Assembly: GCF_018977255.1 (NCBI RefSeq)
Contig: NW_024704742.1
Span: 71,426,001 to 71,490,000 of the forward strand
Length of the DNA: 64,000 nt
DNA from: Callorhinchus milii
Lineage: Eukaryota
Reading direction: 5' to 3'
A model generated the notes under the pieces. It saw only the letters and a list, made by a program, of their open reading frames with translations. It was not told the origin of the DNA and did no database searches. Position 1 is the first letter of the stretch; every line of letters begins with the position of its first letter. Both the position numbers and the translations under genes were made by a program. Positions 9,693-45,919 of the stretch are shown here, one piece after another.

Positions 9693-10468
9693 GCCCCCCC
9701 CCCCCCCCTGGGGTGACAGTGCAGTGGGGGCAGCGGCTCAGAGCCTCCCCCTCTCCCCCCCCCTCTCCCCTCCAGCCCCCCCTCTCCCTCCAGCCCCCCC
9801 CCTCTCCCCGGTCCCCCCCCCTCTCCCCAGTCCCCCCCCTCTCCCCGGTCCCCCCCCCTCTCCCCCCCCCTCCCCCCCCCTCTCCCCCAGTCCCCCCCCT
9901 CTCCCCCCCCTCTCCCCAGTCCCCCCCCCTCTCCCCGCCTCTCCCCAGCCCCCCCCCCCTCTCCCCCCCCCTCTCCCCAGCCCCCCCTCTCCCCCCCTCT
10001 CCCCCAGCCCCCCCCCCTCTCCCCCCCCCTCTCCCCAGCCCCCCCCCCCTCTCCCCCCCCCTCTCCCCAGTCCCCCCCCTCTCCCCCGCCTCTCCCCAGC
10101 CCCCCCCCTCTCCCCCCCCTCTCCCCCAGCCCCCCCCCCTCTCCCCCCCTCTCCCCCAGCCCCCCCCCCTCTCCCCCCCCCTCTCCCCAGCCCCCCCCCT
10201 CTCCCCCCCCCTCTCCCCCCCCTCCCCCGCCGCCCCCCCCCTCTCCCCCCCCCCTCTCCCAGCCCCCCCCCCTCTCCCCCCCCCTCTCCCCCCCCCTCTC
10301 CCCAGCCCCCCCCCCCTCTCCCCCCCCCCTCTCCCCCAGTCCCCCCCCTCTCCCCCCCTCTCCCCAGCCCCAGCCCCCCCCTCTCCCCAGCCCCCCCCCT
10401 CTCCCCCCCCCTCTCCCAGCCCCCCCCCCCCTCTCCCCCCCTCTCCCCAGCCCTCTCCCCCCCCCTCC
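9693..10468. repeat. C-rich low-complexity tract (CnTCTCnAG)
   Basis: Direct inspection. It produces the spurious poly-Pro and poly-Gly ORFs. Confidence 0.97.
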
Positions 10469-10500
10469 CGGGGACCCGCCCCTGTGGGGCTGCGGCGCGG

Positions 10501-10524
10501 GGCACGTGACCAGTGTCACATGAC
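10501..10524 (+). promoter_or_regulatory. Tandem E-boxes GGCACGTGAC and GTCACATGAC (CLEAR/USF/MiT-TFE-like)
   Basis: Both motifs lie in a CpG-rich patch within 40 nt upstream of the NAGK ATG. Confidence 0.6.
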
Positions 10525-10539
10525 CCCCTCCCGACAGCG

Positions 10540-10574
10540 ATGGCGATGGCGGAGGGTTATGGAGGAGTTGAAGG
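10540..10574 (+). CDS. NAGK: NAGK coding exon 1 (MAMAEGYGGVEG)
   Basis: ATG at 10540 with a second in-frame ATG at 10546. YGGVEG matches the NAGK N-terminus. Phase-2 donor GG|gtcagc joins in frame to exon 2. Confidence 0.9.
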
Positions 10575-10586
10575 GTCAGCGTCACT

Positions 10587-12682: not shown

Positions 12683-12822
12683 CTCTAAATTTATTTCCTT
12701 GTCTCACTTTTTGTAGCAGCTATGTCTCCTGACCCTTGACCCCCTGTGCTTCCTCGGGTGTCAGGGGGGCTCTGGGCACGGAGTATCCCGGCTGTAACGT
12801 GTTCTCTAATCTCCTCCCTCAG

Positions 12823-20500: not shown

Positions 20501-21167
20501 ATGCTCCGTCATCGTCCAGTGTGAAGGGCGCTATGCAAATGCAAGTTGTTGTTGTTAATGCTATCAGCGCCTGAGGTGTAGAGGTGCTGGTGGGAGCCAA
20601 TCAGAAGGGCCTCGATCTTGTTGATATTCCTTACTCCACACACCTCTGTTTATCTAGCAGTAAGTAGGACCCCAGTTGTTAATCGATTGGTGGATCGCTT
20701 TTGTTCGCAGGTAATAATTCCTGAGAAAAAAATAATAATTTGGTCACTCAACCCATGACTGTCTGTGGGACACTGCTGTGCACAATTGGCCCCCACGTTT
20801 CGTCACAAAAAGATACAGTCGATCCACTTTACAATATAATCTGTGAAGCACTTTGAGACGTCTCAACGACGTGATAAGGCGCTATATCAAATGCAAGGAT
20901 TACTATTATGTTATTATGAAGCACAAAGTGCTCAAAATCTCCACCTCAACTCAGGCCATTGTCCCCACTGACCCACAAGTTAGCTGTCCTGTCAACGATA
21001 CAGGGAATCTGACAGCTGGGCATTTGAACGCAATGTAGCCCACCATCCTGTCTGTATCAAATGCAAGAATTATTATTATCTGGGGTGGGGGGGTTGGAGG
21101 GCAGTTAGGAGGGCAGTGTGGGGTGGGACTCTCTGCCGAGGTGCCCTGATGAAGGTTTGTGTTGCAG

Positions 21168-21278
21168 GAGGCATTGTGCTGGTGGCCGGAACGGGCTCTA
21201 ACTGTAAGCTGGTGAACTCCGACCTCTCGGTCATTGGCTGCGGAGGGTGGGGGCACCTGATTGGGGACGAGGGTTCAG
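21168..21278 (+). CDS. NAGK: NAGK exon 5 ([36 protein letters not shown])
   Basis: Acceptor ttgcag, 111 nt, donor gtgagt. GTGSNC and GGWGHxxGDEGS signature motifs. Confidence 0.97.
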
Positions 21279-21775
21279 GTGAGTCGAGAGGGGAGCGGGA
21301 GGGGGCCAGCGCTGGGGAATCTCACCCCGGCTGCCCGCGAGGCTCTGGTTAAACTCACTAACTCTGGGCGAGACATGCCTTGTATGGGAGCTGCCAATAG
21401 GTGTTTGGGAGGAGAAAAAATATTCTGGTGTTTTCGCTCTCCACCGGATCGCCACGTTATCTGATTTCACCCCCCCCCCCCGCCCAGCCAACGCCTTATA
21501 ACAGGGTTCACTGACTGTGCAGGTGGTTGATGTTGACTGGAGTCAGAGCGTGTTCCTGCCTCTATCTCTGTCTCTTACTCTCCCTTTCTGTATCTCTCAC
21601 TCTTTCTCTGTGTCTCTCGCTGTATCTCTCGCATTTTCTCGTGCGCTTGCTCTGGTTCTCTTTTGCTCTCGCTCTTCCACTCAAGCTTTCTCCCTCTCTC
21701 TCCCTTGCCCTCTCTCTCTCTCTCCTGCTCCCTCTCATCCTCTATCTCTCTCTCGCTCTTTCTCTCTCCCCCCAG

Positions 21776-21888
21776 CATACTGGATCGCACAGACTGGTAT
21801 CAAATGCGTCATCAACGGCCTGGATAACTTCGAGTTGCCCCAGTACAGCTTCCGCAACCTGGAAAGAAAGATATACGAGTATTTCCAG
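21776..21888 (+). CDS. NAGK: NAGK exon 6 (AYWIAQTGIK...YEYFQ)
   Basis: Long polypyrimidine tract plus cag, 113 nt, donor gtacct. AYWIA motif. Confidence 0.95.
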
Positions 21889-22981
21889 GTACCTTCTCGC
21901 CCCGATACCCCAACCGTCCTCCCAGCCTGAGCAAGAGAGGGACGGAGAGCAAGAGAGAGCGCGAGATCAAGAGGGAGAGAGAGAGATAGAGAACGAGAGC
22001 GACAGAGAGAGCTTGAGAGGTCGTCTCGTAGTGTGTCGGGTGGGTGACTGGGAGACCTGGTGTGGTGGGTAGGGGCGGGGAGGTGGAACGATGGATAACA
22101 GTGTGATTGAAGAGATGGGACACAAGGGGTCTTTAAAGGTAGGCAGAGGGGAACGGTGAGGTGGAGAGAGAGGAAAGGTGAGGCGGAGGGACTCTGGGAT
22201 GGAGCTTCAGAGAGCAGGAGCAGAATGTCTGAACGCTAGCCCGCTGATGGTGGGGGAGGGGGCATCGACCAGCCCAGCGCTTGCTGAGCGCAGGGAGTAG
22301 CCGGGAAGGTAGGGCTGCAGGAGGTCACAGAGGTCGGGTGGGGATGAATCCATGAAGGGGTTTGAATGTGAGGCCGAGGGTCTTGAATAATAATAATAAT
22401 CTTTGAATTCGATATAGCGATTGATCATGTTGTTGAGACATCTCACAGCGCTTCATAGAATATTCTATAATGTGAATTGACTGTATTTTGTGGGAGAAAC
22501 TCCATCCGCTGAGGGAAGGGGAGCCATTGGAGCTGAGGGAAGATGGGAGTGATCCCCAGTGTTAGAGGGATAAACCACGAGGAATGACGGAGAAAATCGA
22601 ATTCTTCAGCCTTGAAAGACATCCTCTCAGATGGGGAAATTATAGGGATTGTGGAGGCCATTCAGCCTGTTCTATATGTGTGTTAGTTCCTCTACTGAGT
22701 TAGAGAGCTCCAGTGGGGGAGCGAGCACCAGGGCAGACGCGATGGGCTGAGCAGCATTAAGAAGATAATTGACATTCTGCTTTGAGGAGGTAGGGGGTAG
22801 GGAGGGGGGGTGGTAGGGATTTGGTTTGAAACTCTTGTCATGTTGAGGTGATATTGAAAGCCGTTCCTATTACTCTTCTCTCTCCTCTTCCTCTCCCCCC
22901 ACACCCTCTCCTCTCTTCTCTTTCCTCTCTCCCCCACCTCTCTCTCTTCCCCAACTCTCTCTTCTCTCTTTCTCTCCGCAG

Positions 22982-31536: not shown

Positions 31537-32700
31537 GTGGAGATGGTGGGGAGAGGGCGGGGAGAGGGCGGGGAGATGGTGGGGAGAGGGCGGGAGAGGG
31601 GGGAGAGGGGGGGAGAGGGCGGGGAGATGGTGGGGAGAGGGCGGGGAGATGGTGGGGAGAGGGCGGGGAGATGGTGGGGAGAGGGCGGGGAGATGGTGGG
31701 GAGAGGGCGGGGAGATGGTGGGAGAGGGCGGGGAGATGGTGGGGAGAGGACGGGGAGATGGTGGGGAGAGGACGGGGAGATAGCAGGGAGAGGGCGGGAA
31801 GAGCACGGGGAGATGGCGGGGAGAGAACGGGGAGATGGCGGGGAGAGGGCGGGGAGATGGGGGGAGAGGGCGGGGAGAGGGCGGGGAGAGGACGGGGAGA
31901 GGACGGGGAGAGGAAGGGGAGAGGACGGGAAGAGGGCGGGGAGAGGACGGGGAGATGGTGGGGAGATGGTGGGGAGAGGGCGGGGAGATGGTGGGGAGAG
32001 GACGGGGAGAGGAAGGGGAGAGGACGGGAAGAGGGCGGGGAGAGGACGGGGAGATGGTGGAGAGATGGTGGGGAGAGGGCGTGGAGATGGTTGGGAGGGG
32101 AGGGGAGAGGGTGGGGAGATGGTCGGGAGAGGACAGGGAGATGGTGAGGAGAGGATGGGGAGAGGGCGGGGAGATGGTGGGGAGAGGGCGGGGAGAGGGC
32201 GGGGAGATGGTGGGGAGAGGGCGGGAAGAGGACGGGGAGATGGTGAGGAGAGGACGGGGAGATGGTGGGGAGATGGTGGGGAGAGGGCGGGGAGATGGTG
32301 AGGAGAGGACGGGGAGAGGACGGGGAGAGGGCGGGAAGAGGACGGGGAGATGGTGAGGAGAGGACGGGGAGATGGTGGGGAGATGGTGGGGAGAGGACAG
32401 GGAGATGGTGAGGAGAGGATGGGGAGAGGGCGGGGAGATGGTGGGGAGAGGGCGGGGAGATGGTGAGGAGAGGACGGGGAGAGGACGGGGAGAGGGCGGG
32501 AAGAGGACGGGGAGATGGTGAGGAGAGGACGGGGAGATGGTGGGGAGAGGACGGGGAGAGGAGGGGACGGGGAGAGGACGGGAGAGGATGGGGAGAGTGG
32601 GGAGAGGACGGGGAGAGGACGGGGAGAGGATGAGGAGAGGAGGACGGGGAGAGGATGCGGAGATGGTGGGGAGAGGACGGGAAGAGGACGGAGAGAGGAC
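31537..32700. repeat. G-rich minisatellite (GGGGAGAGGGC/GGGGAGATGGT/GGGGAGAGGAC units)
   Basis: Direct inspection. Confidence 0.97.
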
Positions 32701-32855
32701 GATGGTTGTTCTTTGTGATGTTGGGAAGAATCATCACAGCAACTTTTGTGACTTCACAAAGACCAGAGTACACCTCACGTCCCGGGAAAGGGGAAGAGCT
32801 CATTCTCACAGACGCACTCACACCCACACACCCACACACCCTCTCCCTTTCCTTC

Positions 32856-33280
32856 TCACTCACTCACTCACTCACTCACTCACTCACTCACTCACTCACT
32901 CACTCACTCACTCACTCACTCACTCACTCACTCACTCACTCACTCACTCACTCACTCACTCACTCACTCACTCACTCACTCACTCACTCACTCACTCACT
33001 CACTCACTCATTCCACCACCACTCACTTGCTTGCACACTCCCTCACTCACTCACTCACTCACTCACTCACTCACTCACTCATTCCACCACCACTCACTCG
33101 CTTGCACACTCCCTCACTCGCATGCTCTCACTCACAGCCTTTCACGCACACACTCACTCGCACACTCACTGAAACTGCTCACTCACATGCTCTCACGTAC
33201 ACTTGCACACTTGCTGACTTGCACACTCGCTCACTCACACTCCCTCACTAGCTCACTCACGCACACTCACACACACTCTT
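32856..33280. repeat. (CACT)n microsatellite, degenerate at its right end
   Basis: Direct inspection. Confidence 0.95.
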
Positions 33281-33506
33281 GCACAATTGCTCTCGCTTGC
33301 TGACTCAAATCCACTTACACATTCGCTCCTTTAAAAATCAGAGGACCCTCTATGAAGTGAATCCTAGGCTCAGGAAGCCTCGAGGCTTTTTCCCCACCCT
33401 GAGAAGCGTGTGACAGACTGTGAAGGCAGCCTGACTCCATCCCTGGTGATGTGAGAGATAGACTCTTCGCACATCACTGTGGTGTCCCTTCGCTCCCCAC
33501 CCTCAG

Positions 33507-33596
33507 GCTCTGACACGTAGCGGACGCTCAGTGTGACCTCTCCGACGATCGTCATCTCACGTTCATCCTCGCTGAAGATAGACGTGCCCAGTCATG
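33507..33596 (+). other. Putative 5' UTR exon ending in the start ATG (33594-33596) of the Mn-motif gene
   Basis: Acceptor ccctcag at 33506 and ATG|gtaaga donor. In-frame TGA upstream. Phase 0 fits the next exon. Confidence 0.55.
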
Positions 33597-34199
33597 GTAA
33601 GATCGAGTAAAGGTGGGGGGAGTGGGAGGCCATTCAGCCCAGCGAGTTGATTGAGTCAGTGCTGCGTTCTTGCAGGTTGGAGTGACGTCACAGTCACCTG
33701 TAGGAGATCTTATTAGGAATCTTTGCTAAATTGGTGCATCTGTAGCATAATGGTTAGGGTGCTTGGCTCGCAAGCAAGAGGACCCGGGTTAAAACCCGGG
33801 CAAAACCTTAGGCAAGTTTCCTTGATCCACATATCTGTTTACTTAGCAGTAAGTAGGAAACTGGTTGTTAGTCGATTAGCAGATCACTTTCCAGGGTTAA
33901 TAATCCCTCTAAAAAACAACAATTTGGTCACTCAATCCACGACTGTTTGTGGGACACTGCTGTGCGCAATTGGCTGCCACATTCCACCCACAAAATACAC
34001 AGTCAATTCACTTTACAGTATATTCTGTGAAGCGCTTTGAGACTTCTCAATGGCGTTATATCAAATGCAAGGATTATTATTATTATTATTCTTTGATCCC
34101 GCCCGCCTATCCTCCAATCATGCATTCAGCTGCTTCTTAAATCAGTCCTACCCTTCCTGGTGACCCTATTCCCTTGTCATTAACATATAAATAGCGGGT

Positions 34200-34497
34200 T
34201 TGTCGGTAACCCGAGTGCACCAAGTTAAAATAGTTGTTAAAAGAAACAGAGGGGAGGTGAGAAGAAATGTTTTCACGCAGCAAGTTGTTTGGATCTGGAA
34301 TGCATTGCCTGAAAGGGTGGTGGGAGCTGATTCCATAACAACTTTTAAGAGAGAAGTAGATAATTATTTGGGAAGAACATGTCTGCAGCCTATGAAGAGA
34401 GAGCGGGGGAGTGGGATTGAATTGGATAACTCTTTTCAAAGAGTCGACACAGACACGATGGGCCGAATGGCCTCCTCCTGTGCTGTATAGTTCTATG
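34200..34497 (+). mobile_element. CR1 3' fragment
   Basis: RRNVFTQQVVWIWNALPERVV and a gggccgaatggcctcctcctgtgctgta tail. Confidence 0.85.
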
Positions 34498-35172
34498 GTT
34501 GCCATCCTGCTGTTGCCCTTGGCACCCATTGAACTCCTGTCCTGCTGTCTTGGTGAAAAAGTGTTGTTCTGGGTGTACTTTCAATGCTGTCAGAAAGAGA
34601 AGGGAGTTTCTCCTTCCCCCCACAGCTGTGTCCTGGCTGACAAGCCCCCAAATAAAATCAGTTACTCACTTCACAGCAGTTTGTGTGACTAGCGTCGTTA
34701 GTCAATTGGCAGATCGCTTTCTGGGGCTAATAATCCCTTCAAAATAACTTGGTCATTCAATCCACTACTGTTTGTGGGACACTGCTGAGCACAACAGGCT
34801 GTGCATTTTGCCCATAAAATACACAGTCAATTCATTTTACAGTTTATTCCGTGAAGATCTTTGAGACGCCTTGATGACGTGATAAGGCACTATATCAAAT
34901 GTAAGGATTATTATTATTATTCCTCTTTGATTGCACCTTCCATCATCTCCCCCACCCCAACATGCCCTCTGATCTGACCCCGAGAAGGGGGTTCCTCTCT
35001 TCCGGTGTCCTGCCCAACAATCCTCCCAGATAAAATCAGTCGCTCACTTCACGGCTGTTTGCAGAGATGCTGCCGTGAGCAAACTACATGGTAAACAGTC
35101 ACATTTCAGAAAACTGTGAAGCTCTCTCTGAGGTGAGGTGAGATGATTATTGACTACGTTCTCTCTCCGCAG

Positions 35173-35286
35173 AGTAACGTGCTCACCACATACCAGGATG
35201 ACTTCAAGGCTTATTCGAAGCATGCCTGGAAGTCAGCCAAACCCGAAGGCGTGGAGGCCAGAAAAGACCACCTCAAACTTGCCCCG
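35173..35286 (+). CDS. Unnamed Mn-motif gene exon (SNVLTTYQDDFKAYSKHAWKSAKPEGVEARKDHLKLAP)
   Basis: Acceptor ctccgcag, 114 nt, donor gtaaca. Unique open sequence among repeats with TTYQDDF. Confidence 0.8.
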
Positions 35287-35548
35287 GTAACACACACACA
35301 CACCATCACCAGTAACACACACACACACACCGTCACCCCGTAACACACACACACACTGTCAGCGGTAACTCACATACACACACCATCCTCAGAAAAACAC
35401 ACCGTACCCAGTAACACACACACAAACCGTCCCCAGTAACACACACACACCATCCCTAGTAACACACATACGCACACCATCCCCAGTAACACACACACCA
35501 TCCCCAGTAACACACACGCACGCACAGTCCCCGGTAACACACACACTA
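35282..35548 (+). repeat. Tandem repeat cccc(a/g)gtaac(ac)n starting at a splice donor
   Basis: About ten units of roughly 20-40 bp. Confidence 0.85.
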
Positions 35549-35853
35549 TCCCTGTCCCGTCTCAATCACTTCCTTTTCGACCGTGCCTTTGGTTATCTTC
35601 CCTCCAATCTGATCCCGATCCACAGGTCATTACCCAGGGCCTCCTGACGTGAAAGTCGCTGTGTCAATGCAATTTGTCACTGTCACTATACACAGACAGC
35701 CTCGCTCACTGTCAGCCTCACAGTGATTGATAGTTGTGTGTGCATTTGTGTGTGTGGGTATTGATGGCTGTGTGTGTGATTATTGATGGCTGTATGTGGT
35801 TACTGATCGCTGTGTGTATGTGTGTGTGATTATTGATCACTGTGTGTGCGTAG

Positions 35854-35982
35854 GACGGGACGATGCTGGAGTTCCCCACCACTTACCTGGATGATTACAA
35901 ACCCATGAAGCGTCGGCTGATCCCAGCCACCAGCTCTGCTGACCAGGGAGGTTTGTCGGTCAAAGAATTCCAGGATCCCCAG
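35854..35982 (+). CDS. Unnamed Mn-motif gene exon (DGTMLEFPTTYLDDYKPMKRRLIP...EFQDPQ)
   Basis: Acceptor gcgtag, 129 nt, donor CAG|gtaaca. Second motif TTYLDDY. Confidence 0.8.
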
Positions 35983-36130
35983 GTAACAGGCCAGCGAGAC
36001 CCAATTACAACCGGGCAGTCAGAACAGTAACATATTGTATCACAATACTGAATGGAGTGACTGACCGATTTTATCTGGGGGGCATTGGCGGCCAGGACAC
36101 CTGGAGAGAGAAGCTACCTTCTCACTGTGG

Positions 36131-36480
36131 GATCCTGTAGTGTAGTGGTTAGAGCATTCCCCTCGCCAGCGAGAGGACCCAGGTTTGATTCCCAGGCAGA
36201 GCGAAACCTTGGACAAGTTTCCTTAATTCACACCTCTGTTTACCTAGCAGTAAGTAGGAACCCGGTTGTTTGTTGAATCTCTTTCGGGAGGTAATAATCC
36301 CTCTAAAAAAAAATTGGGGTCACTGAATCCACAACTGTCTGTGGGACACTGCTGTGCGCAATTGGCTGCCATGTTTTGCCCACAAGATACACATCAGTTC
36401 ATTTTAGAGTATATACTGTGAAGCTCCTTGAGACATTTCAACAACGTGATATCAAATGCAAGGATTATTATTATATTATT
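36131..36480 (+). mobile_element. Near full-length tRNA-derived SINE with L2-like tail (many copies: 18715+, 20108+, 33740+, 38934+, 13500-, 25330-, 29950-, 43595-, 53040-, 55520-)
   Basis: A-box tagtgtagtggt and B-box ggtttgattcc, a shared body, a Deu-like gggacactgctgtgcgcaattggctgcc segment and a (TTA)n tail. Confidence 0.88.
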
Positions 36481-37873
36481 GTCCCGTCCCCCCACACACA
36501 CTCGCATGCACTGCTCACTCTCTGGTACTGTTCTTGTAAAAGCCCTTGATATGTTATGAATACGTTATATGATTTTCTTGCCACTCAGCTCCCATTATCT
36601 CTGGGACAAGCTGTGGGAAAGCTTACCAGACAGCGATATCAATGGCAAGCTGTGTGGTTTTAGCTGGTTAGACTCCAACGCACACTCTGGGGCCACCAAG
36701 TTTTGGCTCTTGCCAACCTATAATTTGGTCACTCAAGCCACGACTGTTTGTGGGGAGCTGTGCTGTGCGCAATTGGCTGTTACATTTCGCCCACAAAATA
36801 TAGTCAATTCACTTTACAGTATACTCTGTGAAGCACTTTGAGACATCTCGAAGACGTGATAAGGAGCTATACCAAGTGCAAGGATTATTATTATTATTAA
36901 CCTGCGCCTAATTCTCTCAAGAATTAGGTAAGCAGGATGCTTCCCTCCAGGGAGAGAGTGCGCATCCCATTCCAACAACGTATCTCTGGGATTTCCATGT
37001 GTAGGTGGGATACATGGAATTCTCCGTTTGGTTAGGAGACTCTTAAGCATGGGGATGGGTTTCCACATGTGTCAGACACACGACTGATCAAAATAAATAT
37101 ATCTCTGAGTATATGTGTGTATTTCTCAACAGTTGTTGAGAGGTAACCGGCTGGTGTGAGCTGAGGAGCTAGTGATTTTGATAGCAGTCTCGAGGGTTAT
37201 TTATAACGTTTGAGGCTGGGTGTCTGGCGAGGAGGGAGTTGAGGTCACAATTGCCTACAGTTGGCAATGCTGATGCCAGGCAGCAGTGGGTCAGTGCCAG
37301 GCGAGGAGGTCAAGGAAGAACAGCTACGTATCATAACTCCCCCCAAGCCCCCCCAAGGCCCGAAGACCCTGAGATCCGGAGGCAGCCAGGAAGCAGATTC
37401 CCAGCCAACCTCTGATTCCCAACAACTCCAGAGGTAGAGTGTTGTCAAAGATGGGAAGATGTGTGTCTCAGCCTGGCTTAGCCATCAGCGCTCTCGCCTC
37501 TGAGTCAGGAGGTTGTGGGTTCGAGCCCCAGTGAGGAGCGAGCACCAGCACAGACGCAATGGGGGGAGAACAGGGAATAGGATTAGAGTTGAGAGCTCCA
37601 GTGGGGGAGCGAGAAACAGCACAGACACATTGGGGAGACTTGGCTCCTGTGCTGTAATTTCTATGAATTATGAAGCTGCTGATGCTGGTTTCTGGAACTG
37701 TGTGTTAACTATTCCTCTCTCTCTACTTATCTCTATCTTTGTCTGTCTGTCTGTCTCTCTCTCTCTATCTCTGCTCTTGTCCCTGTCTATGTCTATGTCT
37801 CTCTTTCTCTGCCTCTATTTCTCTGTGTCTCTCCATTTTTCCCTCTGTTATCAATTTGTCTCCCTCCCATTGT

Positions 37874-37905
<32 letters not shown>

Positions 37906-38056
37906 GTCTTTATATATATATCTGTTTCTCTATCTCTGTCTCTCCGGTCTCTCCCTCTATCTGTTGTCTCTCTTTGTTGTCTTTCTCTGTCTTTCTCTCT
38001 CACACACACTCTCTCTCGCTCACATACACTCTCTCTAACTCTCACTCTCTGAGTAG

Positions 38057-38263
38057 ATCCCAAACATCGACGCACGAATCCCCACCACCTACATGGATCA
38101 CTACAGAGGAAACTGCCTGCCCCCTGTCAGACCATGTATCGAGTACTGCAAGCCTCATATGAACGAGTACACAGCTTGTATGGACCGTTACAACAACTAT
38201 CGCTCGGAGCCGTGTGGCTACCAGATCTGCCCACAGACCTCTTGCACGTACGACACTAACAGG
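38057..38263 (+). CDS. Unnamed Mn-motif gene exon (IPNIDARIPTTYMDHYRGNCLPPVRPC...TYDTNR)
   Basis: Long pyrimidine tract plus gagtag acceptor, 207 nt, donor gtgggt. Third motif TTYMDHY; Cys/Tyr-rich. Confidence 0.8.
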
Positions 38264-38742
38264 GTGGGTTCAACCGCTCGCTCCCCTTCTTTCTCTCTCT
38301 CTCTCCCCGGATCGATCCCCACAGTGCTCTCAATGGCAAGCTATGCGGTTTTAGCTGGTTAAACTCCAGTAGTTACCCCAACACACACTCTGGGCTCAGC
38401 CAAGCCTTGGCTCTTGCCAACCTGGGTCTAATCTGCTGTGCGCAATTGGCTGCTTTGGTTACTCCTCAACCTCCGTGGGTTCTCTCTCACTCACAGACCA
38501 GTGCGCAATCTAGGCATCCGGTTTGACCCCAGTTGTCTTTCCTCCCCCACATCCATTTCCTGACCAGGGCAGCCTTCTTCCACCTCCACCATATTGCCCA
38601 CCTCCGACCGTACCTTACCCCAAATGCAGCCGAAGCCCTTTGGTGTGATAAGGTGCAGTATCAATATAGGGATTATTGAAGTACAGGTGTGTTACTCTCA
38701 CCTGTACTGTGTATATCTCACCTGTATCTATGTTAATCTCAG

Positions 38743-38820
38743 GCTGCTGAGGATGCTCTGGCTTGCTTCCGGTATAAGAAATGTTTGGACAGTCTGTTCG
38801 GGGCCTCACCAATAGCTGAG
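38743..38820 (+). CDS. Unnamed Mn-motif gene exon (AAEDALACFRYKKCLDSLFGASPIAE)
   Basis: Acceptor tctcag, 78 nt, consensus donor GAG|gtaagt, open in phase 0. Confidence 0.72.
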
Positions 38821-39625
38821 GTAAGTCAGAAAGTGATCAGGGCTTCAGCCTTTCTATTCCTTCTCCTGGAGCTCCTTTACCACATCGCCACCCCAGCCTC
38901 CTTCAAGGTCCATTTTAAGACCTTCCTGAGGAGTACTGTAGTTTAGTGGTTAGAGCACTTGCCTCACAAGCAAGAGGATTCAGGTTCGCTTCCCAGGCAG
39001 GGCGAAACTGTAGGCAAGTTTCCTTACTCCACACTCCTCTGTTTACCTAGCAGTAAGTAGAAACCAGGTTGTTAGTCGATTAAGGGGATTATTTTCTGGG
39101 AATAATAATCCCTTCAAGAAATAATGTGATCACTCAATCCACAACTGTTTGTGGGTCACTGCTGTGCGCATTTGGCTGCCAGGTTTCACCCACAAAATAT
39201 ACAGTTACAGTCTACAATATAGTCTGTGAAGCACTTTGGGACGTCTTGACAATGTGATAAGGCGCTATATCAAATGTAAGGATTTTTATTATTATTCCTC
39301 TTTGACCACACCTTCGAACATCTCTGCTCCCAATATTCCCTCAATATTCCCACCCTAACTTGGTTGCAAACCCTGTAATGTCCGTTGCCCTGAACATCCC
39401 ACCGATGTGAAAGGCACTGATTTTACCTATGAAACACGCAGTCACTACTCTTTACAGTGGTCCTGTGCAGCACTTTGATATATCTTTCTTCTCAGAGATA
39501 TCAAAGCTCTGGCAGGGGGAGGGGGGGCAGGGTCACGGGGTATGTGGAGAAGGGGCTGAATGGCCTTGTGCCACTCATACTCCCCATCACCTGAGAGCTA
39601 ATAACCTTTTTCTCGTTGTTCACAG

Positions 39626-39677
39626 CAAGAGAAATATCCCCCTGAGGAGACGTTTACTAGACCCTGTACATTCAAAG
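39626..39677 (+). CDS. Unnamed Mn-motif gene exon (QEKYPPEETFTRPCTFK)
   Basis: Acceptor ttcacag, 52 nt, donor AAG|gtgatc, phase 0 to 1. Confidence 0.62.
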
Positions 39678-40134
39678 GTGATCGATTTACACTTAACCTT
39701 ACTGATCAAATACTTATCCACACTCCAACACACTCTCTCTCCTCTCACATTTACACTCTCTCTCCCGGTCTCACACACTCCCCCCCCCGCCCCGCACCAC
39801 TCTCCTTTCACACTCTTCCCCTCCTCCTCTCTCTCCTCTCTTCACACTCTTCCCTCTCTCTCTTCCCTCTCTCTCGCTTTCTCTCTCTCTCACACACACA
39901 CACGTTATTCCCTCTCTCTTTCTCTCCCTTTCTCCTCTCACACTCTTCTCGCTCTTCTCACACTCTTCTCTCTCTGTCTCCCCCCCTTTCTCTTCACTCT
40001 CCTGTCTTCACACTCTTCTCTCTCTCCTCTCACACTCTTCCTTCTTGGAGATGTCTCAAAAGCCTTGTTCTATATAAATTGCTAAACAGGATTCAAAAAG
40101 TAAACCCAGATCAATACTTTCAGATGCACGAAGA

Positions 40135-41060
40135 CAACAACAACAACAAGATTACATTTGTATAGCGCCTTTCACGTCGGGAGGACGTCCCAGGGCACTA
40201 GACAGAGTACAGCATTTCAAACCTGAGCTGGGGTCGGGGGGGGGGGGTGGAAGGGAGGAGAGGGGAAGGGGGGTGATCAATGGCATGGTCAAAGAGGTGG
40301 GTCTTGAGGCAGGACTTGAAGGAGGCTAAGGAGAGGGCGAGACGGAGTGACTGGGGGATGGAGGTTGGGGGCAGAGTGGCTGAAGGCTCTCCCACCAATG
40401 GTGGGACGGGTGGGTCGGGGGACGTGGAGCAGGCTGGAGCCGGCTGAGCGGAGGGAGCGGGCAGGTTGGAAGGGGGTTAGGAGGTCGCAGATGTAGGGTA
40501 AGGCGAGGCCATGGAGGGCTTTGCAGGTGAGGACCAGGATCTTGAACTGGATCCTCTGAAGGATAGGGAGCCAATTGGAGTCAGGCGAGAATGGGGGAAA
40601 TGGGGTCACAGAGTTTGGTGTGGGAGAGGACACGGGTTGCAGAGTTCTGGATTATCTGCAGCCTGTGGAGGGAGGAGTTGGGAAGGCCGACAATCAGGAA
40701 GTTTGCATAGCCGAGCCTGGAGGTGATGAAGGCATGAACAAGAGTTTCAGCGGCCTGAGGGGTAAGGTAATGGTGGAGTCGGGCGATGTTACGGAGGTGA
40801 GGGAAGGCAGAGTGGGTCATGGCTTGGATGTGGGGAAGAAAAGACAGTTGAGGGTCGAACAAGACACCGAGGTTCCTGACTGGCGGTGAGTTGAAGTGTG
40901 CAACCATGGAGGTTGATGCTGCCGGAGCCTGAGGTGCTGAGGCGCTGGTGTGAGCCAATCAGGAGGGCCTCAGTCTTGTTCACATTCAACTGTAGGAAGT
41001 TTGCTCTCATCCAGGACTTGATGTCTGACAGGCAGTCTGTCAGCACAGCAGAGGTCCTGG
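40135..41060 (-). mobile_element. L2-clade LINE 3' fragment
   Basis: DCLSDIKSWMRANFLQLNVNKTE, VRNLGVLFD, WLPILQRIQFKIL. Confidence 0.9.
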
Positions 41061-41928
41061 AGGTGACAATGGAACAAGAGGACACAAGTTTAGAGATGTA
41101 AAGGGGGCAATATCAGGACAGACACCAGGAAGTGTTTCTTTACCCAGAGGGGAATTAATGAATGGAGCAGGATTACCAAGAAGGGGGGTTGAGGTCAGGT
41201 CACTGGGACTTGTTTACAAAGCAGCTCGATGCTGTGATGGGGGAACGGTAGTGAAGTGTTCTGCAGGAATGAGATCAGCTGGGCCGAAAGGTCTTCTTCA
41301 TCTGAATCTCTTCAGATCTTTTGTTCTCTGCTCTCCCCTCACTTTTTCCCTCTCCTTCTCTGACTCTTGCACTCTATCTCTCTCACTCTGTCTTGCTCCG
41401 GGACCTGACCCGACGTGAAGGGCGCTATATAAATGGAAGTTGTTGACTTTCTCACTCCTCTCTCACTCTCACTCTGCCGGTCACTCTCTCTGTAGCGGTC
41501 TGTCTTTATTTTCTCTTTCTCTTACTCACCGTGGGTCTCTCATTCTTACTTTCTATCTCTTTCTCACTCTCACTTTGCCTTTGTCATACTCTGTCTTTCT
41601 CAACTCTTTCTCACACTTGCTCATTGACTGACTCACTTACAATCACTCTTTCTCTTTTTCTCTCACTCTCATCTGTCATTCTTTCCTTCCTCACTTACAC
41701 TTCTCTCACACTCATTACTATCTCTCTCACTGTTTCACTCTTTCTCTCACCCTTCCTCTCACTCTCTCTTGCACTCCCTCAGTCTCTTTCTCCCTTTGAT
41801 CTCTCCCTATACCATTGCCCTGTGTATGGGATGAGAATCAGACTTGCTGCCCAATGGATCTCTCTCTCTCTGAGTTGTTCTTGTCTATGGTTCCCCCGAT
41901 TTACATGCACTTTCTCCCCCCTCATAAG

Positions 41929-42039
41929 CTCCGAATATTCCGAACTGTATTGATTATGTTAAGAAATCATCCTCAATGGTCCGCATACCGGAGGGAGGAG
42001 TTAATAGGAAGCTGGAGGCGTGCTCCATATTCCCGACAG
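41929..42039 (+). CDS. Unnamed Mn-motif gene exon (APNIPNCIDYVKKSSSMVRIPEGGVNRKLEACSIFPT)
   Basis: Acceptor tttctcccccctcataag, 111 nt, donor CAG|gtcagt, open in phase 1 to 1. Confidence 0.62.
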
Positions 42040-43082
42040 GTCAGTATCCAGCTCCCAGCGGCGAAGGAGAGGAGAGGAACTGAGGATGCGGAGAGGAGAT
42101 GGAGGGGATAAGTGGGCTCAGTGAAGAGAAGACATATTTAAGTGCAAGGGGGCATCACCCTCTCAATGCCCCGACAGACAGAGAGAGAGGCTTGCAGATT
42201 GATCGACGTCAAAATCATTATTAATAAAAGAGTCTTTTATTAATAATAATTATATTCACAGGATCAGGAAATGTCTCCCCGTCACAACAGCTAACGTTTT
42301 ATACCCAGAGACCCACGGCCGCTAGATAAATGCAAGTTGTTGTTGGTGCAAAACCTTCACTGTCCAGCGACTGGGATGACCATTGGGAGTGAATTGTGTC
42401 AGGGATCTGCGGGGAGTGAGACAGGTGGATGGTTCATTTGGACTTTGGTTGAAGGAGGGAGTGTGGACTAGGGAAGTGGAGAGTAGGGGGTGGACTATGT
42501 AAACCAGGTGAAATCACATTGTGGGAAAATGGTGTCCCTTAATGTGTATGAGAATCACATGGCAGACTGCAGGGAAATGAATGTCTCAATAACAGCTCAG
42601 GGTCCCTGGGGTGGGCTCTATTTCTGACATGGCCACGCGTTTTATTGTGGATCGAGTCTCTCACAACATTTCACGGCTCCCAAAAATATTGTGACCACCA
42701 TCCCTTTGAATAGCTCAAAATGAGATCCATAATTAGGTTTGGATTGTGTGCGTGCGAGTGTGTGTTTGAGGGTGTGCCAGGGTATGAGAGTGAGTATGTG
42801 AGTGTGTCTGCATGCGAGAGTGTGTGTGTGTGATAGAATGTGTGCGAGTGTGTACCCAAGTGAGTGTATGAGTGTGTATCAGCATATGAGGGTCTGTGTG
42901 GGTCAGCATATAAGAGTGTGAAAGTGTACACGTCTGTGGGGAGTGATGTCACGATCTGTGTGTGAGTAGGGAAATGTGTGTGTCTGTGCAAGTGTAAATG
43001 CAATTTGCGAGTATGTGAATGTGACAGCCCGAACAGTTTGAAACAGACAGACTGGTAACTGTGTGGTTGTGTTTCCTCTTAG

Positions 43083-43209
43083 CACAAATGAGCCATATCT
43101 CAGGATTCCCATCCAACAAGGTGGACAGTCGCTACTGTCACTACCCTGGGCTGGTCGCCAACCCCTGTGACCCTTACATGCGTATGCCTCGCCGTTACTC
43201 TGAGTACAG
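43083..43209 (+). CDS. Unnamed Mn-motif gene exon (AQMSHISGFPSNKVDSRYCHYPGLVANPCDPYMRMPRRYSEY)
   Basis: Acceptor tttcctcttag, 127 nt, donor CAG|gtaagc, open in phase 1 to 2. Confidence 0.7.
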
Positions 43210-43594
43210 GTAAGCCGTCTGGCTGCTCCCCATGGGGATGTCTGACCTCTGTGACCTGCTAACACTGTATAGATCTGTCCGTTCCCTCTGCTCCAGCAGG
43301 CTCTGGCCTGCTCCACGTCCCCCGCCAATGGCAGTCGGGCCTTCAGCCTCTCTGGCCCCAACTCCATCCCACAGTTCTTTCGCCTTGCTCTCTCCCTTGC
43401 TTCCTTCAAGGCAGGTCTTGACCACGCCTTCGGTCACCCTCCTACCCATACCCTTCCTGGTCTCCACCTCTCCTGATCCCAACCTCCTGCTCGGGTCCAA
43501 ATCCCTGACTGTCCAGCACCTTGGAATGCCCTCCCGACGTGAAAAGTGCTGTACACATGTAATTTGTTACTGCTGTTGTTGAGAAAGGGGAGAA

Positions 43595-43956
43595 ATAATA
43601 ATTATCCTCGCATTTGATATGGTGCCTTATCATGTAGTTGAGACATCTCAAAGCGCTTCACAGAATATATTGTAAAGTGAATTGACTGTGTATTTTGTGG
43701 GCGAAATATGGCAGCCAATTGCACACAGCAGTGTCTCACAAACAGTTGTGGATTGAGGGACCAAATTTTTTTGGAGGAATTATAAACCCTGGACAGCGAT
43801 CCACCAACCGACTAACAACCGGGTTCCTACTTACTGCTAGATAATCAGAGGCGTTTGGAGAAAGGAAACTTGCCTAAGGTTTCGACCCGCCTGGGAATCG
43901 AACCCTGGCCCTCTCGCTTGCGAGGCGAGTGCTACTAACCATTACGCGATGGGACG
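43595..43956 (-). mobile_element. tRNA-derived SINE
   Basis: Reverse-complement copy of the same family with B-box ggttcgattcc. Confidence 0.87.
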
Positions 43957-44154
43957 CCACAGATATTATCACATCCTGTGATTGGGCCAAATTGACAAGG
44001 TGCCTGAGTGTCTCATTGGAAGGGTGGCCTCTCCAAACGTGTTCTGAGACAGTGCTGGTGGCAGAGACAATCGGCTGACAATGAGTCGACCTTGGCTGTT
44101 GTGTTTCTTTGACACTTATTATTAATATTGAGTTTTTTTGCTGTTCTCTTTCAG

Positions 44155-44224
44155 TCCCAGTTGTCGTCGGCTGGAAAGTGATAGGTCAGGATACTCAAAG
44201 CTTGAAAGAACAAACTATTGCTAA
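44155..44224 (+). CDS. Unnamed Mn-motif gene last coding exon (SPSCRRLESDRSGYSKLERTNYC*)
   Basis: Acceptor ttctctttcag in phase 2, TAA at 44222-44224, AATAAA at 44874. Total CDS 891 nt. Confidence 0.62.
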
Positions 44225-44314
44225 CAGGAGAGGGCGACATTACACAGGATCAGTGCAAAGGCTTCATGTTAACGGATCAGCGATACTTTAGCAATACCAC
44301 AGTTGTGATGCCCT

Positions 44315-44472
44315 GAACCAAACTCAACTCCATTCAACTCAAACCAACTGAATTCAACTAACTCTACCCAACCCACCTCAAACCAACCCAACTGAACCCA
44401 CCTCAAACCAATCCAACTAACCTCAAACCATCACAAGCTCAACCCAACCCACCTCAAACCAAACCAACTCTA
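44315..44472. repeat. (CAACC/CAACT)n degenerate pentamer repeat in the predicted 3' UTR
   Basis: Direct inspection. Confidence 0.8.
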
Positions 44473-44873
44473 CTCTCCCCTTCTTTACTGTTAACATCTA
44501 CCATCCAACAAATGACTTGACCTTACGAATACCAGTTGAAAGCAAGTATCACGCCAGACATTTCCCCCTAAAAGTACCACTCATCATTTACCTATGAGTT
44601 AAGCCATCCAACTTACCCATTATGTTTTACTAGTACTGTTCAGGTGTCACTTAAAACCTACACCTTATCAATATCATTACCATACTTGTACATCTGACGT
44701 CAATTGAGCTACTGCCTCTGATCCCAACCCAAAGCCATCAAGCCCTTGTGCTTGTTTCGCCACACCCACTCTCAAAGGAAACCTTTCCCATCTAGCAAGC
44801 AAACCCACATACTGACTCACACACACACACACAATGCAGCCACTATAATTGCTTATCTGTACTGATACTCAGA

Positions 44874-44879
44874 AATAAA
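44874..44879 (+). terminator. Candidate polyA signal of the Mn-motif gene
   Basis: AATAAA 650 nt after the predicted stop. Confidence 0.5.
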
Positions 44880-45919
44880 AGTGCAATGGAGACATTGGAG
44901 TAAGATGTCGCTTCATGTGGAAGGTTTGAGAATTTGGAAGGTAGCGCTCCATGAAGTCATCGATAATAATTCTTATCTGTGCTCTCAATGTCTCTCATAC
45001 TGTGTGGTTTTAGGTGGTTACCCCAACACACATTCTGGGGTCCCCAAGCCTTGGCTCACACCAACCTGTAATTAATATTCTTTAGAATTAAGTAAGTAGG
45101 GCGGGAAGGAGAACGAGAAAGAGAGAAATTGTGTGCGCGCGCATTATATTTTATACACTCTGCCCCCAACCTCTGGAATTCCATCCCCCAATCACTCCGC
45201 CTCACCCCCTCCTTAGCCTCCTTCAAGTCCCGCCTCAAAACCCTCCTCTTCGACCATGCCATCGGTCACCCCCCCTGCCTGACCCCAGCTCAGGTCTGAA
45301 ATGCTGTACTCTGTCCAGCGCCTTGGGACGTCCTCCCAACTTGAAAGGCACTATACAATATAATATTAATATATGATCTTGTATACACAGGGAAATTTCT
45401 ACATGTAGGTGACATACATGTGTGGAACTCTGTCTGGTTTGGATACTCGAAAGTAGTTATGGGTTTCTGCATTTGTCAAGACACCCGGCAGATCATGGTA
45501 ATGGGTTTCTGCATATGTCAACACACCCGGCTGATCGTAGTGATGGGTTTCCATGTGCATCAGGCACCAGCTGATCATGGTGATGGGAAAACTAGCCGAC
45601 TGTGAGGGTAGATTGAAGAACATTCCACAATTGTGAGTCGATGGTCCTGGGGCTGAGATTATGAAGAATTGCCAGACACATGCGTGTTTCCAGCATTTCT
45701 CATTCTTATATCCAATTTCCTGGGTCCTCCCAGGAAGCGGTTCCTAACTGGATTGTTCAATAAGATGACCTTCTTCTTGTTCCTGGAAGTAGACCAGGTC
45801 AACCAGCAGGAACTCTGGCTCTGAGGCAAGTAATGCAGAGCAGAGCTCCTGTGTCAGTCATAACTACAGCAGCCTTCTTTAGCGAAGAACTCAGCTGGAA
45901 AGTGCTGCGAGCAAGATAA

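What the first reader, a model, noticed from the sequence alone, without database searches (positions are those of the whole stretch)
33507..44879. Unrecognised multi-exon gene encoding a ~296-aa protein with three Mn-like motifs (candidate axonemal microtubule inner protein)
Seen: nine GT-AG-bounded unique segments (ATG 33594; 35173-35286; 35854-35982; 38057-38263; 38743-38820; 39626-39677; 41929-42039; 43083-43209; 44155-44224) splice with matching phases into an 891-nt ORF, followed by AATAAA. Three successive exons each carry one repeat, TTYQDDFK, TTYLDDYK and TTYMDHYR, spaced about 42-44 aa apart. The C-terminal half is Cys/Tyr/Pro-rich. Known: T-T/S-Y-x-x-D-Y/F is the core of the Mn motif of MAP6, SAXO and SPMIP proteins that bind tubulin. 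Inference: a fast-evolving sperm or ciliary inner protein. The N-terminus (DFKAYSKH) faintly recalls my memory of TEX37/SPMIP9, but I cannot assign orthology.
Basis: partly seen in the sequence, partly recalled or inferred. Interest (0 to 1): 0.8.

Follow-up and report, generated by a model that had tools for sequence, protein, structure and literature searches.

The report
Shark-lineage gene with microtubule-binding motifs
This is a real, intact gene found so far only in sharks, rays and their relatives; it carries three copies of a short motif that other proteins use to grip the inside of cilium and sperm-tail microtubules, but that role is untested here.

Summary
The nine segments at the stated coordinates join through eight GT..AG introns into an 891-nt frame (296 aa, TAA at 44222-44224, AATAAA at 44874). 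The gene is real. Predicted 'uncharacterized' proteins from six shark, skate and ray species align with it end to end at 59-62% identity. The three motifs TTYQDDF, TTYLDDY and TTYMDHY fit the published Mn-repeat syntax, lie 42 and 44 residues apart, and resemble the Mn repeats of this genome's own SAXO1/2 genes. Family membership fails everywhere it was tested: no Pfam family, no solved chain, and no relative outside cartilaginous fishes among 1.84 billion representative proteins. 'Fast-evolving' is wrong for the Cys-rich C-terminal 170 residues, which are 68-74% identical across the group. The TEX37 lead is not supported. The most likely reading (0.5) is a lineage-restricted microtubule-lattice binder, probably luminal in axonemes. 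Expression, tubulin binding and the first exon remain unproven.

The parts
33594..33596 (+). Proposed start codon at the end of exon 1 (ATG|GTAAGA).
   Evidence: best ATG+donor in unique sequence between 31500 and 35172. No homology or RNA support.
35143..35172 (+). Alternative start: an in-frame ATG contiguous with exon 2, which would add MIIDYVLSPQ.
   Evidence: TGA at 35134, then ATG at 35143, open into exon 2. Not resolved.
35173..35286 (+). Exon 2 (38 aa), carrying Mn motif 1, TTYQDDF, at 35185-35205.
   Evidence: (tblastn E 0.02-0.4).
35854..35982 (+). Exon 3 (43 aa), carrying Mn motif 2, TTYLDDY(KP), at 35878-35898.
   Evidence: (E 3e-5 to 0.015). A Narcine isoform starts at this exon border.
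38057..38263 (+). Exon 4 (69 aa), carrying Mn motif 3, TTYMDHY, at 38084-38104, and the start of the Cys-rich region.
   Evidence: single copy in the genome; 72-80% identical to 4 elasmobranch clusters; E 1e-29 to 5e-33.
38743..38820 (+). Exon 5 (26 aa, phase 0-0), a cassette exon.
   Evidence: E 5e-10 to 3e-8. Leucoraja isoform X3 lacks exactly these 26 residues.
39626..39677 (+). Exon 6 (52 nt).
   Evidence: E 0.02-0.18; collinear alignment.
41929..42039 (+). Exon 7 (111 nt).
   Evidence: E 2e-14 to 8e-13.
43083..43209 (+). Exon 8 (127 nt).
   Evidence: E 4e-13 to 7e-19. The short elasmobranch isoforms diverge at the exon 7/8 border, as skipping a 127-nt exon would cause.
44155..44224 (+). 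Exon 9 coding part, with stop TAA at 44222-44224.
   Evidence: It aligns with one of the two elasmobranch C-terminal variants. Not found by tblastn.
44874..44879 (+). AATAAA polyadenylation signal, the only AATAAA or ATTAAA between 44225 and 45500.

Best explanation
An intact, single-copy gene of a protein family so far seen only in cartilaginous fishes. The protein has two parts.

1. N-terminal 100 residues. These hold three SAXO/MAP6-type Mn motifs, 42-44 residues apart, joined by poorly conserved linkers.

2. A roughly 170-residue Cys/Tyr/Pro-rich region. It is strongly conserved, has 11 invariant cysteines, and has no detectable relatives.

Inferred mechanism: each Mn motif forms a short helix that docks at the luminal alpha/beta-tubulin intradimer site of successive dimers of one protofilament. 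This is how SPM1, FAP363 and SAXO1 bind. The N-terminal part would then cover about three dimers (24 nm). The conserved C-terminal region would contact the lattice or neighbouring inner proteins. The most likely place of action is stable microtubules of sperm flagella or cilia.

Shown: the gene, its conservation, the motifs, their spacing, and their likeness to this genome's own SAXO repeats.

Inferred: tubulin binding, luminal location, and tissue.
For: Gene reality:
- The splice model is correct.
- It aligns collinearly with one chosen isoform from each of six elasmobranch species (Scyliorhinus torazame, S. canicula, Mobula, Hypanus, Leucoraja, Narcine), at 59-63% identity. One search aligned all 19 isoforms.
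- tblastn finds exons 2-8.
- Isoform differences fall on the exon 2/3, 4/5, 5/6, 7/8 and 8/9 borders.
- Exon 4 is single copy in the 991-Mb genome.

Motif:
- All three sites fit [TS]-[TS]-x4-[YF] (PMC10973386).
- They also fit the description of T/S and F/Y six residues apart that mark a short helix bound at the intradimer interface with 8-nm periodicity (PMC8144581, passages).
- Motifs 2 and 3 are invariant in all 7 aligned sequences.
- This genome's SAXO1/2 exons carry near-identical cores: LTTFQDDY, PSTFQDDF and ISTMKEDYKPW, against LTTYQDDF and PTTYLDDYKPM here.
- An HMM built from 12 of those SAXO units hits exactly the three motifs (residues 5-13, 47-56, 91-100). It totals 16.9 bits, against a maximum of 7.1 in 2,000 shuffles.

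Spacing: 42 and 44 aa. SAXO proteins are quoted at about 40 aa per 8 nm (PMC13087473), SPM1 at 32 (PMC8144581), and this genome's own SAXO at 33-34.

Language-model leads only:
- The six named nearest clusters listed (of 30 hits) for the whole shark orthologue carry CFAP107, PPP1R32, CFAP143, CFAP95 (two clusters) and CFAP68, at 0.88-0.89.
- For residues 100-287, 9 of the 10 listed rows are such families or SAXO1, TEX26 or TEX37, at 0.81-0.83.

Structure: AlphaFold2 gives no fold (mean pLDDT 32.6), as expected for an extended lattice-lining protein. The alignment had only 4 rows.
Against: - There is no significant sequence homology to any Mn family. Pfam gives 0 families for 4 of 4 orthologues at E<=10.
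- The PF05217 SAXO1-2 model finds two other loci in this genome but not this one, even at E<=10.
- hhalign against this genome's SAXO exons gives probability 0.5%, E 0.11.
- The PDB profile search finds only Methuselah noise at E 0.19, and no sperm or ciliary inner protein.
- The HMM test is partly circular, because the training units were picked with the same syntax. The orthologues score lower than the window protein: 8.2, 5.5, 5.3 and 0.2 bits.
- Atlas scores below 0.9 are reached by many shuffled proteins.
- Three motifs is few. TbSAXO needs more than two, and SPM1 needs four or more repeats for localisation (PMC3280300, PMC8144581, passages).
- Motif 1 is degenerate in Mobula (SIYQHDY), and some isoforms lack it.
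- The best-conserved part of the protein has no Mn motif, so the main function may lie elsewhere.
- No X-box excess was found near the gene: 6 matches in the window against 5.15 expected.
- There is no evidence of expression in this genome.
Confidence: 0.5

Rival explanations
1. It is an Mn-motif microtubule stabiliser that acts outside the axoneme, for example on manchette-like spermatid microtubules, centrioles or cytoplasmic cold-stable microtubules, as MAP6, MAP6D1, MDM1/SAXO6 or Xenopus Saxo2 do.
For: The motif evidence is the same as for the best explanation. Mn proteins are not confined to axonemes. MDM1/SAXO6 is centriolar and ciliary (PMC13087473, passages). A Spaca9-Saxo2 scaffold lies inside Xenopus spermatid microtubules (preprint 10.64898/2026.08.28.747525, abstract and outline only). 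No X-box excess was found.
Against: Nothing in the sequence distinguishes the compartments. The nearest named language-model clusters are mostly axonemal inner proteins, which is a lead only.
Confidence: 0.2
2. It is not a microtubule protein. On this reading it is a cysteine-rich structural or metal-binding protein, for example a disulfide-cross-linked sperm component, whose function lies in the conserved C-terminal region, and the TTY..D.Y repeats serve another purpose.
For: Conservation is highest in the Cys-rich part: 102 of 172 columns are invariant against 34 of 100 in the N-terminal part, and there are 11 invariant Cys. Exon 4 gives a faint CHCH match, E 0.035 and 14.7 bits against a cut-off of 27.2. 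No Mn family is recognised by any profile method.
Against: The CHCH match is below cut-off and absent from the four full orthologues. Motifs 2 and 3, with their flanks (P-T-T-Y-x-D-D/H-Y), are invariant across the group, so they are under selection too. Their likeness to SAXO cores and their regular spacing would be a coincidence.
Confidence: 0.15
3. It is a strongly diverged orthologue of a named vertebrate Mn protein (TEX26, C2orf73, TEX37/SPMIP9, TEX36 or similar), so it is not lineage-restricted. This is compatible with the best explanation as to function.
For: Its length (281-296 aa) is like the atlas TEX26 cluster (300 aa). TEX26 and TEX37 clusters appear among the atlas leads at 0.82-0.83. 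Mn proteins are known to escape profile searches (PMC10973386, methods passage).
Against: The exhaustive profile search of 1.84 billion representatives found only the family's own cluster at E<=0.001, 1 of 1 hits. The word-indexed search of 5.8 billion found only the same 4 clusters at E<=10 among 8,000 scored candidates. TSC21 (TEX37) is not matched. TEX26 and C2orf73 sequences could not be obtained for a direct profile-profile test.
Confidence: 0.1
4. It is a pseudogene or a chance open frame.
For: There is no RNA evidence in this genome, and exon 1 is unproven.
Against: The frame is intact across 8 canonical introns. All 11 family-invariant cysteines and all three motifs are retained. Identity to lineages that are more like each other (71-81%) than like this genome is still 59-62%, which means long purifying selection.
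Confidence: 0.03

Closest known systems
SAXO1/SAXO2 (Pfam PF05217 SAXO1-2; MAP6-related stabilisers of axonemal microtubules) and their protist relatives SPM1, TbSAXO and FAP363
   Same: Repeated Mn core T-T-x-x-x-D-Y/F, in places followed by K-P, matching this genome's own SAXO repeats almost letter for letter. One motif per roughly 8-nm stretch of chain. Predicted to be unfolded on its own. A Cys followed by prolines lies just after the last motif (C-x-P-P here, C-P-A-S in this genome's SAXO).
   Different: It has only 3 motifs, whereas bovine SAXO1 has 12 (preprint 10.1101/2022.09.29.510157, passages). Spacing is 42-44 aa rather than 33-34 aa. It lacks the N-terminal cysteine motif (first Cys at residue 102). 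It has a long, conserved, Cys-rich C-terminal region that SAXO proteins lack. It does not match PF05217, and hhalign gives probability 0.5%.
Short Mn-motif inner proteins of mammalian sperm and cilia: TEX37/SPMIP9, SPMIP3, SPMIP6, TEX36, TEX26, C2orf73 (listed in PMC10973386, Table 1)
   Same: Small size, a few Mn units, otherwise featureless, and often annotated only as testis-expressed. TEX26 and TEX37 clusters are among the language-model leads.
   Different: No sequence match to TSC21/TEX37 or to any solved inner-protein chain. No hit to any of these proteins in the exhaustive search. TEX26 and C2orf73 were not compared directly.
NWE-Mn seam proteins: CFAP95, CFAP107, SPAG8/CFAP143, CFAP68
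   Same: They carry Mn units that bind between alpha- and beta-tubulin (PMC10973386). They are the nearest named atlas clusters.
   Different: The defining N-terminal [ILV]-L-I-G-N-W-x-E patch is absent from all 7 sequences examined. Their Pfam models do not match.

Membership tests
SAXO1-2 (PF05217) | Match to the family profile | tested here: not met
   0 Pfam families for 4 of 4 orthologues at E<=10. The six-frame genome search with PF05217 gave 9 matches at E<=10, none at this locus; the true SAXO genes lie at C26:4.755 Mb and C1:89.92 Mb. hhalign probability 0.5%.
SAXO family as defined by Dacheux 2012 (PMC3280300) | N-terminal cysteine-rich motif 1 | tested here: not met
   The first Cys is at residue 102 in the window protein. 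In the 5 full-length orthologues it lies at residues 44-100, and at residue 61 in the truncated Narcine isoform. The N-terminus runs straight into Mn motif 1.
SAXO family as defined by Dacheux 2012 (PMC3280300) | Linear repetition of Mn-like motifs | tested here: met
   Three motifs at residues 6, 48 and 92. All three are hit by an HMM built from this genome's SAXO units.
SAXO family as defined by Dacheux 2012 (PMC3280300) | Cys-Pro motif attached to the last Mn-like motif | tested here: inconclusive
   C-[LMF]-P-P follows 3-4 residues after motif 3 in 5 of 7 sequences; Mobula and Hypanus have N there. This genome's SAXO has C-P-A-S 8 residues after its last motif. It is similar, not identical.
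Mn-motif microtubule proteins (broad class) | [TS]-[TS]-x4-[YF] units (PMC10973386), with T/S and F/Y marking a short helix, one unit per 8 nm (PMC8144581) | tested here: met
   The syntax is met three times, at 42 and 44 aa spacing, and is conserved. The low-confidence AF2 model shows helical turns at residues 53-55 and 95-97 of the shark protein, inside motifs 2 and 3; this is weak evidence.
Mn-motif microtubule proteins (broad class) | Binds and stabilises microtubules through the motifs | not testable with these tools
   This needs cell or in-vitro assays or cryo-EM. The complex predictor was not available.
TEX37/SPMIP9 (PF15217 TSC21) | Match to the family profile | tested here: not met
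   No match in 4 of 4 orthologues. The genome search gave 1 match at E<=10 (E 3.1, on contig C2), none at this locus.
NWE-Mn module proteins (CFAP95, CFAP107, SPAG8, CFAP68) | N-terminal [ILV]-L-I-G-N-W-x-E patch followed by two Mn units | tested here: not met
   No NW.E in any of 7 sequences. PF15139, PF22595, PF22584 and PF06608 were not matched.
TEX26 / C2orf73 | Detectable sequence homology | tested here: not met
   The profile search of 1.84 billion representatives returned only the family's own cluster. No direct profile-profile test was possible because their sequences could not be obtained.
CHCH domain (PF06747) | Match above the gathering score | tested here: not met
   Exon 4 alone gives E 0.035 and 14.7 bits against a cut-off of 27.2. 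The match is absent from the full orthologues.

The most novel reading that the evidence does not exclude
Cartilaginous fishes possess a microtubule inner protein of their own. It pairs a three-motif SAXO-type 24-nm 'ruler' with a new, strongly conserved cysteine-rich lattice- or partner-binding module that has no counterpart in any other sequenced lineage. This would be a lineage-specific reinforcement of their sperm-tail or ciliary microtubules, kept since before chimaeras and sharks parted.
Probability: 0.3. Interest if true: 0.55.

Novelty: new variant of a known kind. Interest (0 to 1): 0.4.

Why it matters
Microtubule inner proteins are being catalogued almost entirely from mammals, sea urchin, Chlamydomonas and Tetrahymena. 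This protein has the canonical Mn docking motif but an otherwise unrelated, highly conserved body, and it is confined to one ancient vertebrate lineage. If it is an inner protein, it would show that the Mn motif is a portable module recruited by new genes. It would also give a compact three-motif test case for how many motifs, at what spacing, suffice for luminal binding. Practically, it is a gene model missing from this genome's protein set and unnamed in six other species.

Tried and rejected
1. RNA evidence. The look-up of sequencing runs listed no holder on record as RNA. I laid four runs guessed to be RNA (X1-X4) on 33300-45300. The cover was dominated by interspersed repeats. The listed joints were repeat-to-repeat, and no exon-exon joint was among those shown (985 more were not shown). 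The few unique contigs lay in introns or ran across the exon 4 acceptor unspliced. This says nothing either way about expression.

2. Complex prediction. I prepared alpha- and beta-tubulin alignments (A3, A4) and residues 40-104 of the family alignment for a complex with tubulin.

3. Fold search. I did not run it, because the only model has mean pLDDT 32.6 and pTM 0.14, and matches would be meaningless.

4. Solved structures. The profile search gave only the Methuselah ectodomain at E 0.19-0.2, which I rejected as cysteine-spacing noise.

5. X-box (RFX) scan. There were 6 matches with up to 1 mismatch against 5.15 expected, and none near the putative promoter.

6. Neighbouring genes. A Pfam scan of the 148 longest of 393 filtered open frames flanking the gene gave no family except a sub-threshold bacteriocin model, so the downstream neighbours were not identified. 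PF01869 found nothing in the genome. Even so, two exons upstream match human NAGK in the PDB.

7. Earlier notes of this scan. There was nothing on this locus or sequence. The word search returned Mn/SAXO findings in unrelated genomes, which did not change my reading.

8. Literature. No paper in the library holds LOC119963825, LOC129715036, LOC132390959, XP_038649070 or XP_055520839.

9. Pfam on the joined protein. This was not done; the exons and the stored orthologues were scanned instead.

10. dN/dS and synteny in other vertebrates. These were not possible, because no coding DNA or genomes of other vertebrates are within reach of the tools.

Full report
**Observation**

- Every intron begins with GT and ends with AG, and the acceptors follow pyrimidine tracts.
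- The segments join in phase to 891 nt, that is 296 codons plus TAA at 44222-44224.
- The only AATAAA or ATTAAA in the next 1.3 kb is at 44874.
- The three repeats are TTYQDDF (35185-35205), TTYLDDY (35878-35898) and TTYMDHY (38084-38104). They sit at residues 6, 48 and 92, so they are 42 and 44 residues apart.
- The protein has 16 Cys, 22 Tyr and 28 Pro, and all Cys lie from residue 102 onward.
- In 200,000 composition-preserving shuffles, 5 contained even one TTY.D[DH][YF].

**Is it a gene?**

Exon 4 (69 aa) is single copy in the 991.5-Mb assembly. It matches four protein clusters at 72-80% identity. Those clusters hold 19 sequences from six species: Scyliorhinus torazame, S. canicula, Mobula birostris, Hypanus sabinus, Leucoraja erinacea and Narcine bancroftii. 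All are named only 'uncharacterized protein'.

- The spliced model was built only inside scripts. It aligns end to end with one full-length protein from each of five species at 59-62% identity. The sixth, Narcine, was aligned through an isoform that lacks the first 40 residues (161 of 254 aligned, 63%).
The short exon 9 is not found.
- The elasmobranch splice isoforms differ at this gene's exon borders:
  - Leucoraja X3 lacks exactly the 26 residues of exon 5.
  - A Narcine isoform starts at the exon 2/3 border.
  - The 242-243-aa isoforms diverge at the 7/8 border, as skipping a 127-nt exon would cause.
  - The two C-terminal variants part at the 8/9 border.
- Sharks and rays are 71-81% identical to each other, but only 59-62% identical to this protein. 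The window's organism is therefore an outgroup to both. I infer that this fits a chimaera-like fish, and that the gene predates that split.
- No protein from this genome appeared in either database search. The gene therefore seems unannotated here.

**Weak point: the first exon**

ATG 33594|GTAAGA is the best ATG-plus-donor in unique upstream sequence, but nothing else supports it. An in-frame ATG at 35143 is an open alternative. It follows a TGA at 35134, runs straight into exon 2, and would add ten residues.

**What family?**

None that profile methods can see.
- Pfam gives 0 families for 4 of 4 orthologues, even at E<=10. On the exon pieces it gives only a sub-threshold CHCH match (E 0.035).
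- A profile of the family searched against every one of 1.84 billion representative proteins returned 1 hit, its own cluster.
- The word-indexed search of 5.8 billion proteins returned the same four clusters among 8,000 scored candidates at E<=10.
- The PDB profile search returned only Methuselah at E 0.19, and none of the solved sperm or ciliary inner proteins.
- The SAXO1-2 model PF05217 finds this genome's two SAXO genes on C26 and at C1:89.9 Mb, but not this locus.
- The TEX37 model PF15217 finds nothing here.
- hhalign of the family against the genome's own SAXO exons gives probability 0.5%.
- The NWE patch of the CFAP95/107 group is absent.

The protein is therefore not a member of SAXO1/2, TEX37 or the NWE group. 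Its family is, as far as present databases show, confined to cartilaginous fishes.

**What does it work like?**

The three repeats fit two published descriptions of the Mn unit.
- The syntax [TS]-[TS]-x4-[YF] (PMC10973386, section 8 read in full).
- T/S and F/Y six residues apart, bounding a short helix that sits at the alpha/beta-tubulin intradimer interface every 8 nm (PMC8144581, passages).

Supporting observations:
- This genome's own SAXO1/2 exons have cores such as LTTFQDDY, PSTFQDDF and ISTMKEDYKPW, spaced 33-34 residues apart. The motifs here read LTTYQDDF, PTTYLDDYKPM and PTTYMDHY.
- A small HMM made from 12 SAXO units of this genome hits precisely the three motifs. It totals 16.9 bits, against at most 7.1 in 2,000 shuffles. 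The test is partly circular, because the units were chosen by the same syntax. The orthologues score less: 8.2, 5.5, 5.3 and 0.2 bits.
- Spacing of 42-44 residues is close to the '~8 nm/40 aa' quoted for SAXO proteins (PMC13087473, passages). It is more than the 32 residues that SPM1 needs to span one dimer (PMC8144581).
- Motifs 2 and 3, with their flanking prolines, are invariant in all seven aligned sequences. Motif 1 is looser (SIYQHDY in Mobula), and some isoforms skip it.
- The protein language-model look-up gives leads only, with scores of 0.81-0.89. Its named neighbours are almost all axonemal inner-protein or Mn families: CFAP107, PPP1R32/SAXO4, SPAG8, CFAP95, CFAP68, SAXO1, TEX26, TEX37 and SAXO5-like.
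- AlphaFold2 with the four-row alignment finds no fold (mean pLDDT 32.6, pTM 0.14). That is what extended lattice-lining proteins give, but a shallow alignment gives it too.

**Against this reading**

- Conservation is concentrated away from the motifs. Residues 101-272 are 68-74% identical to the elasmobranch proteins, with 102 of 172 columns invariant and 11 invariant cysteines.
- The first 100 residues are 40-45% identical in the five full-length proteins (53% over the 60 residues present in the truncated Narcine isoform), with 34 of 100 columns invariant.
The C-terminal region, for which I have no homologue and no model, may carry the main function.
- Three motifs is also near the lower limit reported for stable binding: more than two in TbSAXO (PMC3280300) and four or more in SPM1 (PMC8144581).

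**Most likely mechanism (confidence 0.5)**

The N-terminal 100 residues lie along one protofilament inside a stable microtubule, with one Mn helix per tubulin dimer over about 24 nm. The conserved Cys/Tyr/Pro-rich remainder contacts the lattice or neighbouring inner proteins.

Rival readings:
- The same binding mode on non-axonemal stable microtubules (0.2).
- A cysteine-rich structural or metal-binding protein unrelated to microtubules (0.15).
- A diverged orthologue of a named Mn protein such as TEX26 or C2orf73 (0.1). This would be compatible with the function but would remove the lineage restriction.
- A pseudogene (0.03).

**Context**

Two exons of an N-acetylglucosamine kinase gene lie upstream on the same strand, within the open frames at 20984-21349 and 21502-21927. 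They match PDB 2CH5/2CH6 at E 1e-13 and 3e-4. The introns are full of repeats.

**Novelty and interest**

No paper in the library names the orthologues.

I file it as a new variant of a known kind. The docking motif is known, but the architecture is new: no N-terminal Cys motif, three widely spaced units, and a new conserved C-terminal module. It belongs to a family without detectable relatives.

Interest is moderate (0.4). It is useful to the inner-protein field and as a missing gene model, but it is not startling, and its function is untested.

Noticed in passing
window 20984-21927 (+): Two open frames, at 20984-21349 and 21502-21927, each contain an exon of an N-acetylglucosamine kinase (NAGK) gene. 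They match human NAGK residues about 109-198 (PDB 2CH5/2CH6, E 1e-13 and 3e-4). NAGK is therefore the upstream neighbour on the same strand. Its 3' exons were not mapped, so the gap to the Mn-motif gene is unknown.
   Followed up: partly
window 31539-32698 and 32855-33170: Just upstream of the putative first exon lie a 1.16-kb array of a G-rich 11-mer (GGAGAGGGCGG, about 106 copies, 77% matches) and a 316-bp (CTCA)n tract. They create long spurious open frames on both strands.
   Followed up: no
window 9500-12700: A region of more than 3 kb of low-complexity sequence gives open frames of up to 720 aa made of SL/SH/T repeats on one strand and P/S- or G/E/R-rich repeats on the other. It looks like simple-sequence DNA, not a gene.
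   Followed up: no
window 38933-39004 (+) and 43882-43956 (-): ARAGORN calls tRNA-Val(CAC)-like and tRNA-Ala(CGC)-like sequences inside introns 5 and 8. These spots also showed very high depth from many contigs in the laid runs, so they are probably heads of tRNA-derived SINEs rather than tRNA genes.
   Followed up: no
window 35282-35552: Intron 2 opens directly into a degenerate minisatellite of roughly 25-48 bp ((CA)n-CCATCCCCAGTAA units, about 5-10 copies). Each unit carries its own GGTAAC or AGTAAC donor-like site right after the true donor of exon 2.
   Followed up: no
G000 C26:4754267-4762605 and C1:89916866-89925466 (loci L002-L007): These are the genome's two SAXO1-2 family genes (PF05217, E 2.7e-67 and 3.9e-66). 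Each has a large exon carrying six or seven Mn units spaced 33-34 aa apart, or 67 aa where one unit is degenerate.
   Followed up: partly
G000, whole genome: The TEX37/TSC21 model (PF15217) finds no convincing match anywhere in this genome. The best is E 3.1 on contig C2. The gene may be absent, or too split by introns to be seen.
   Followed up: no
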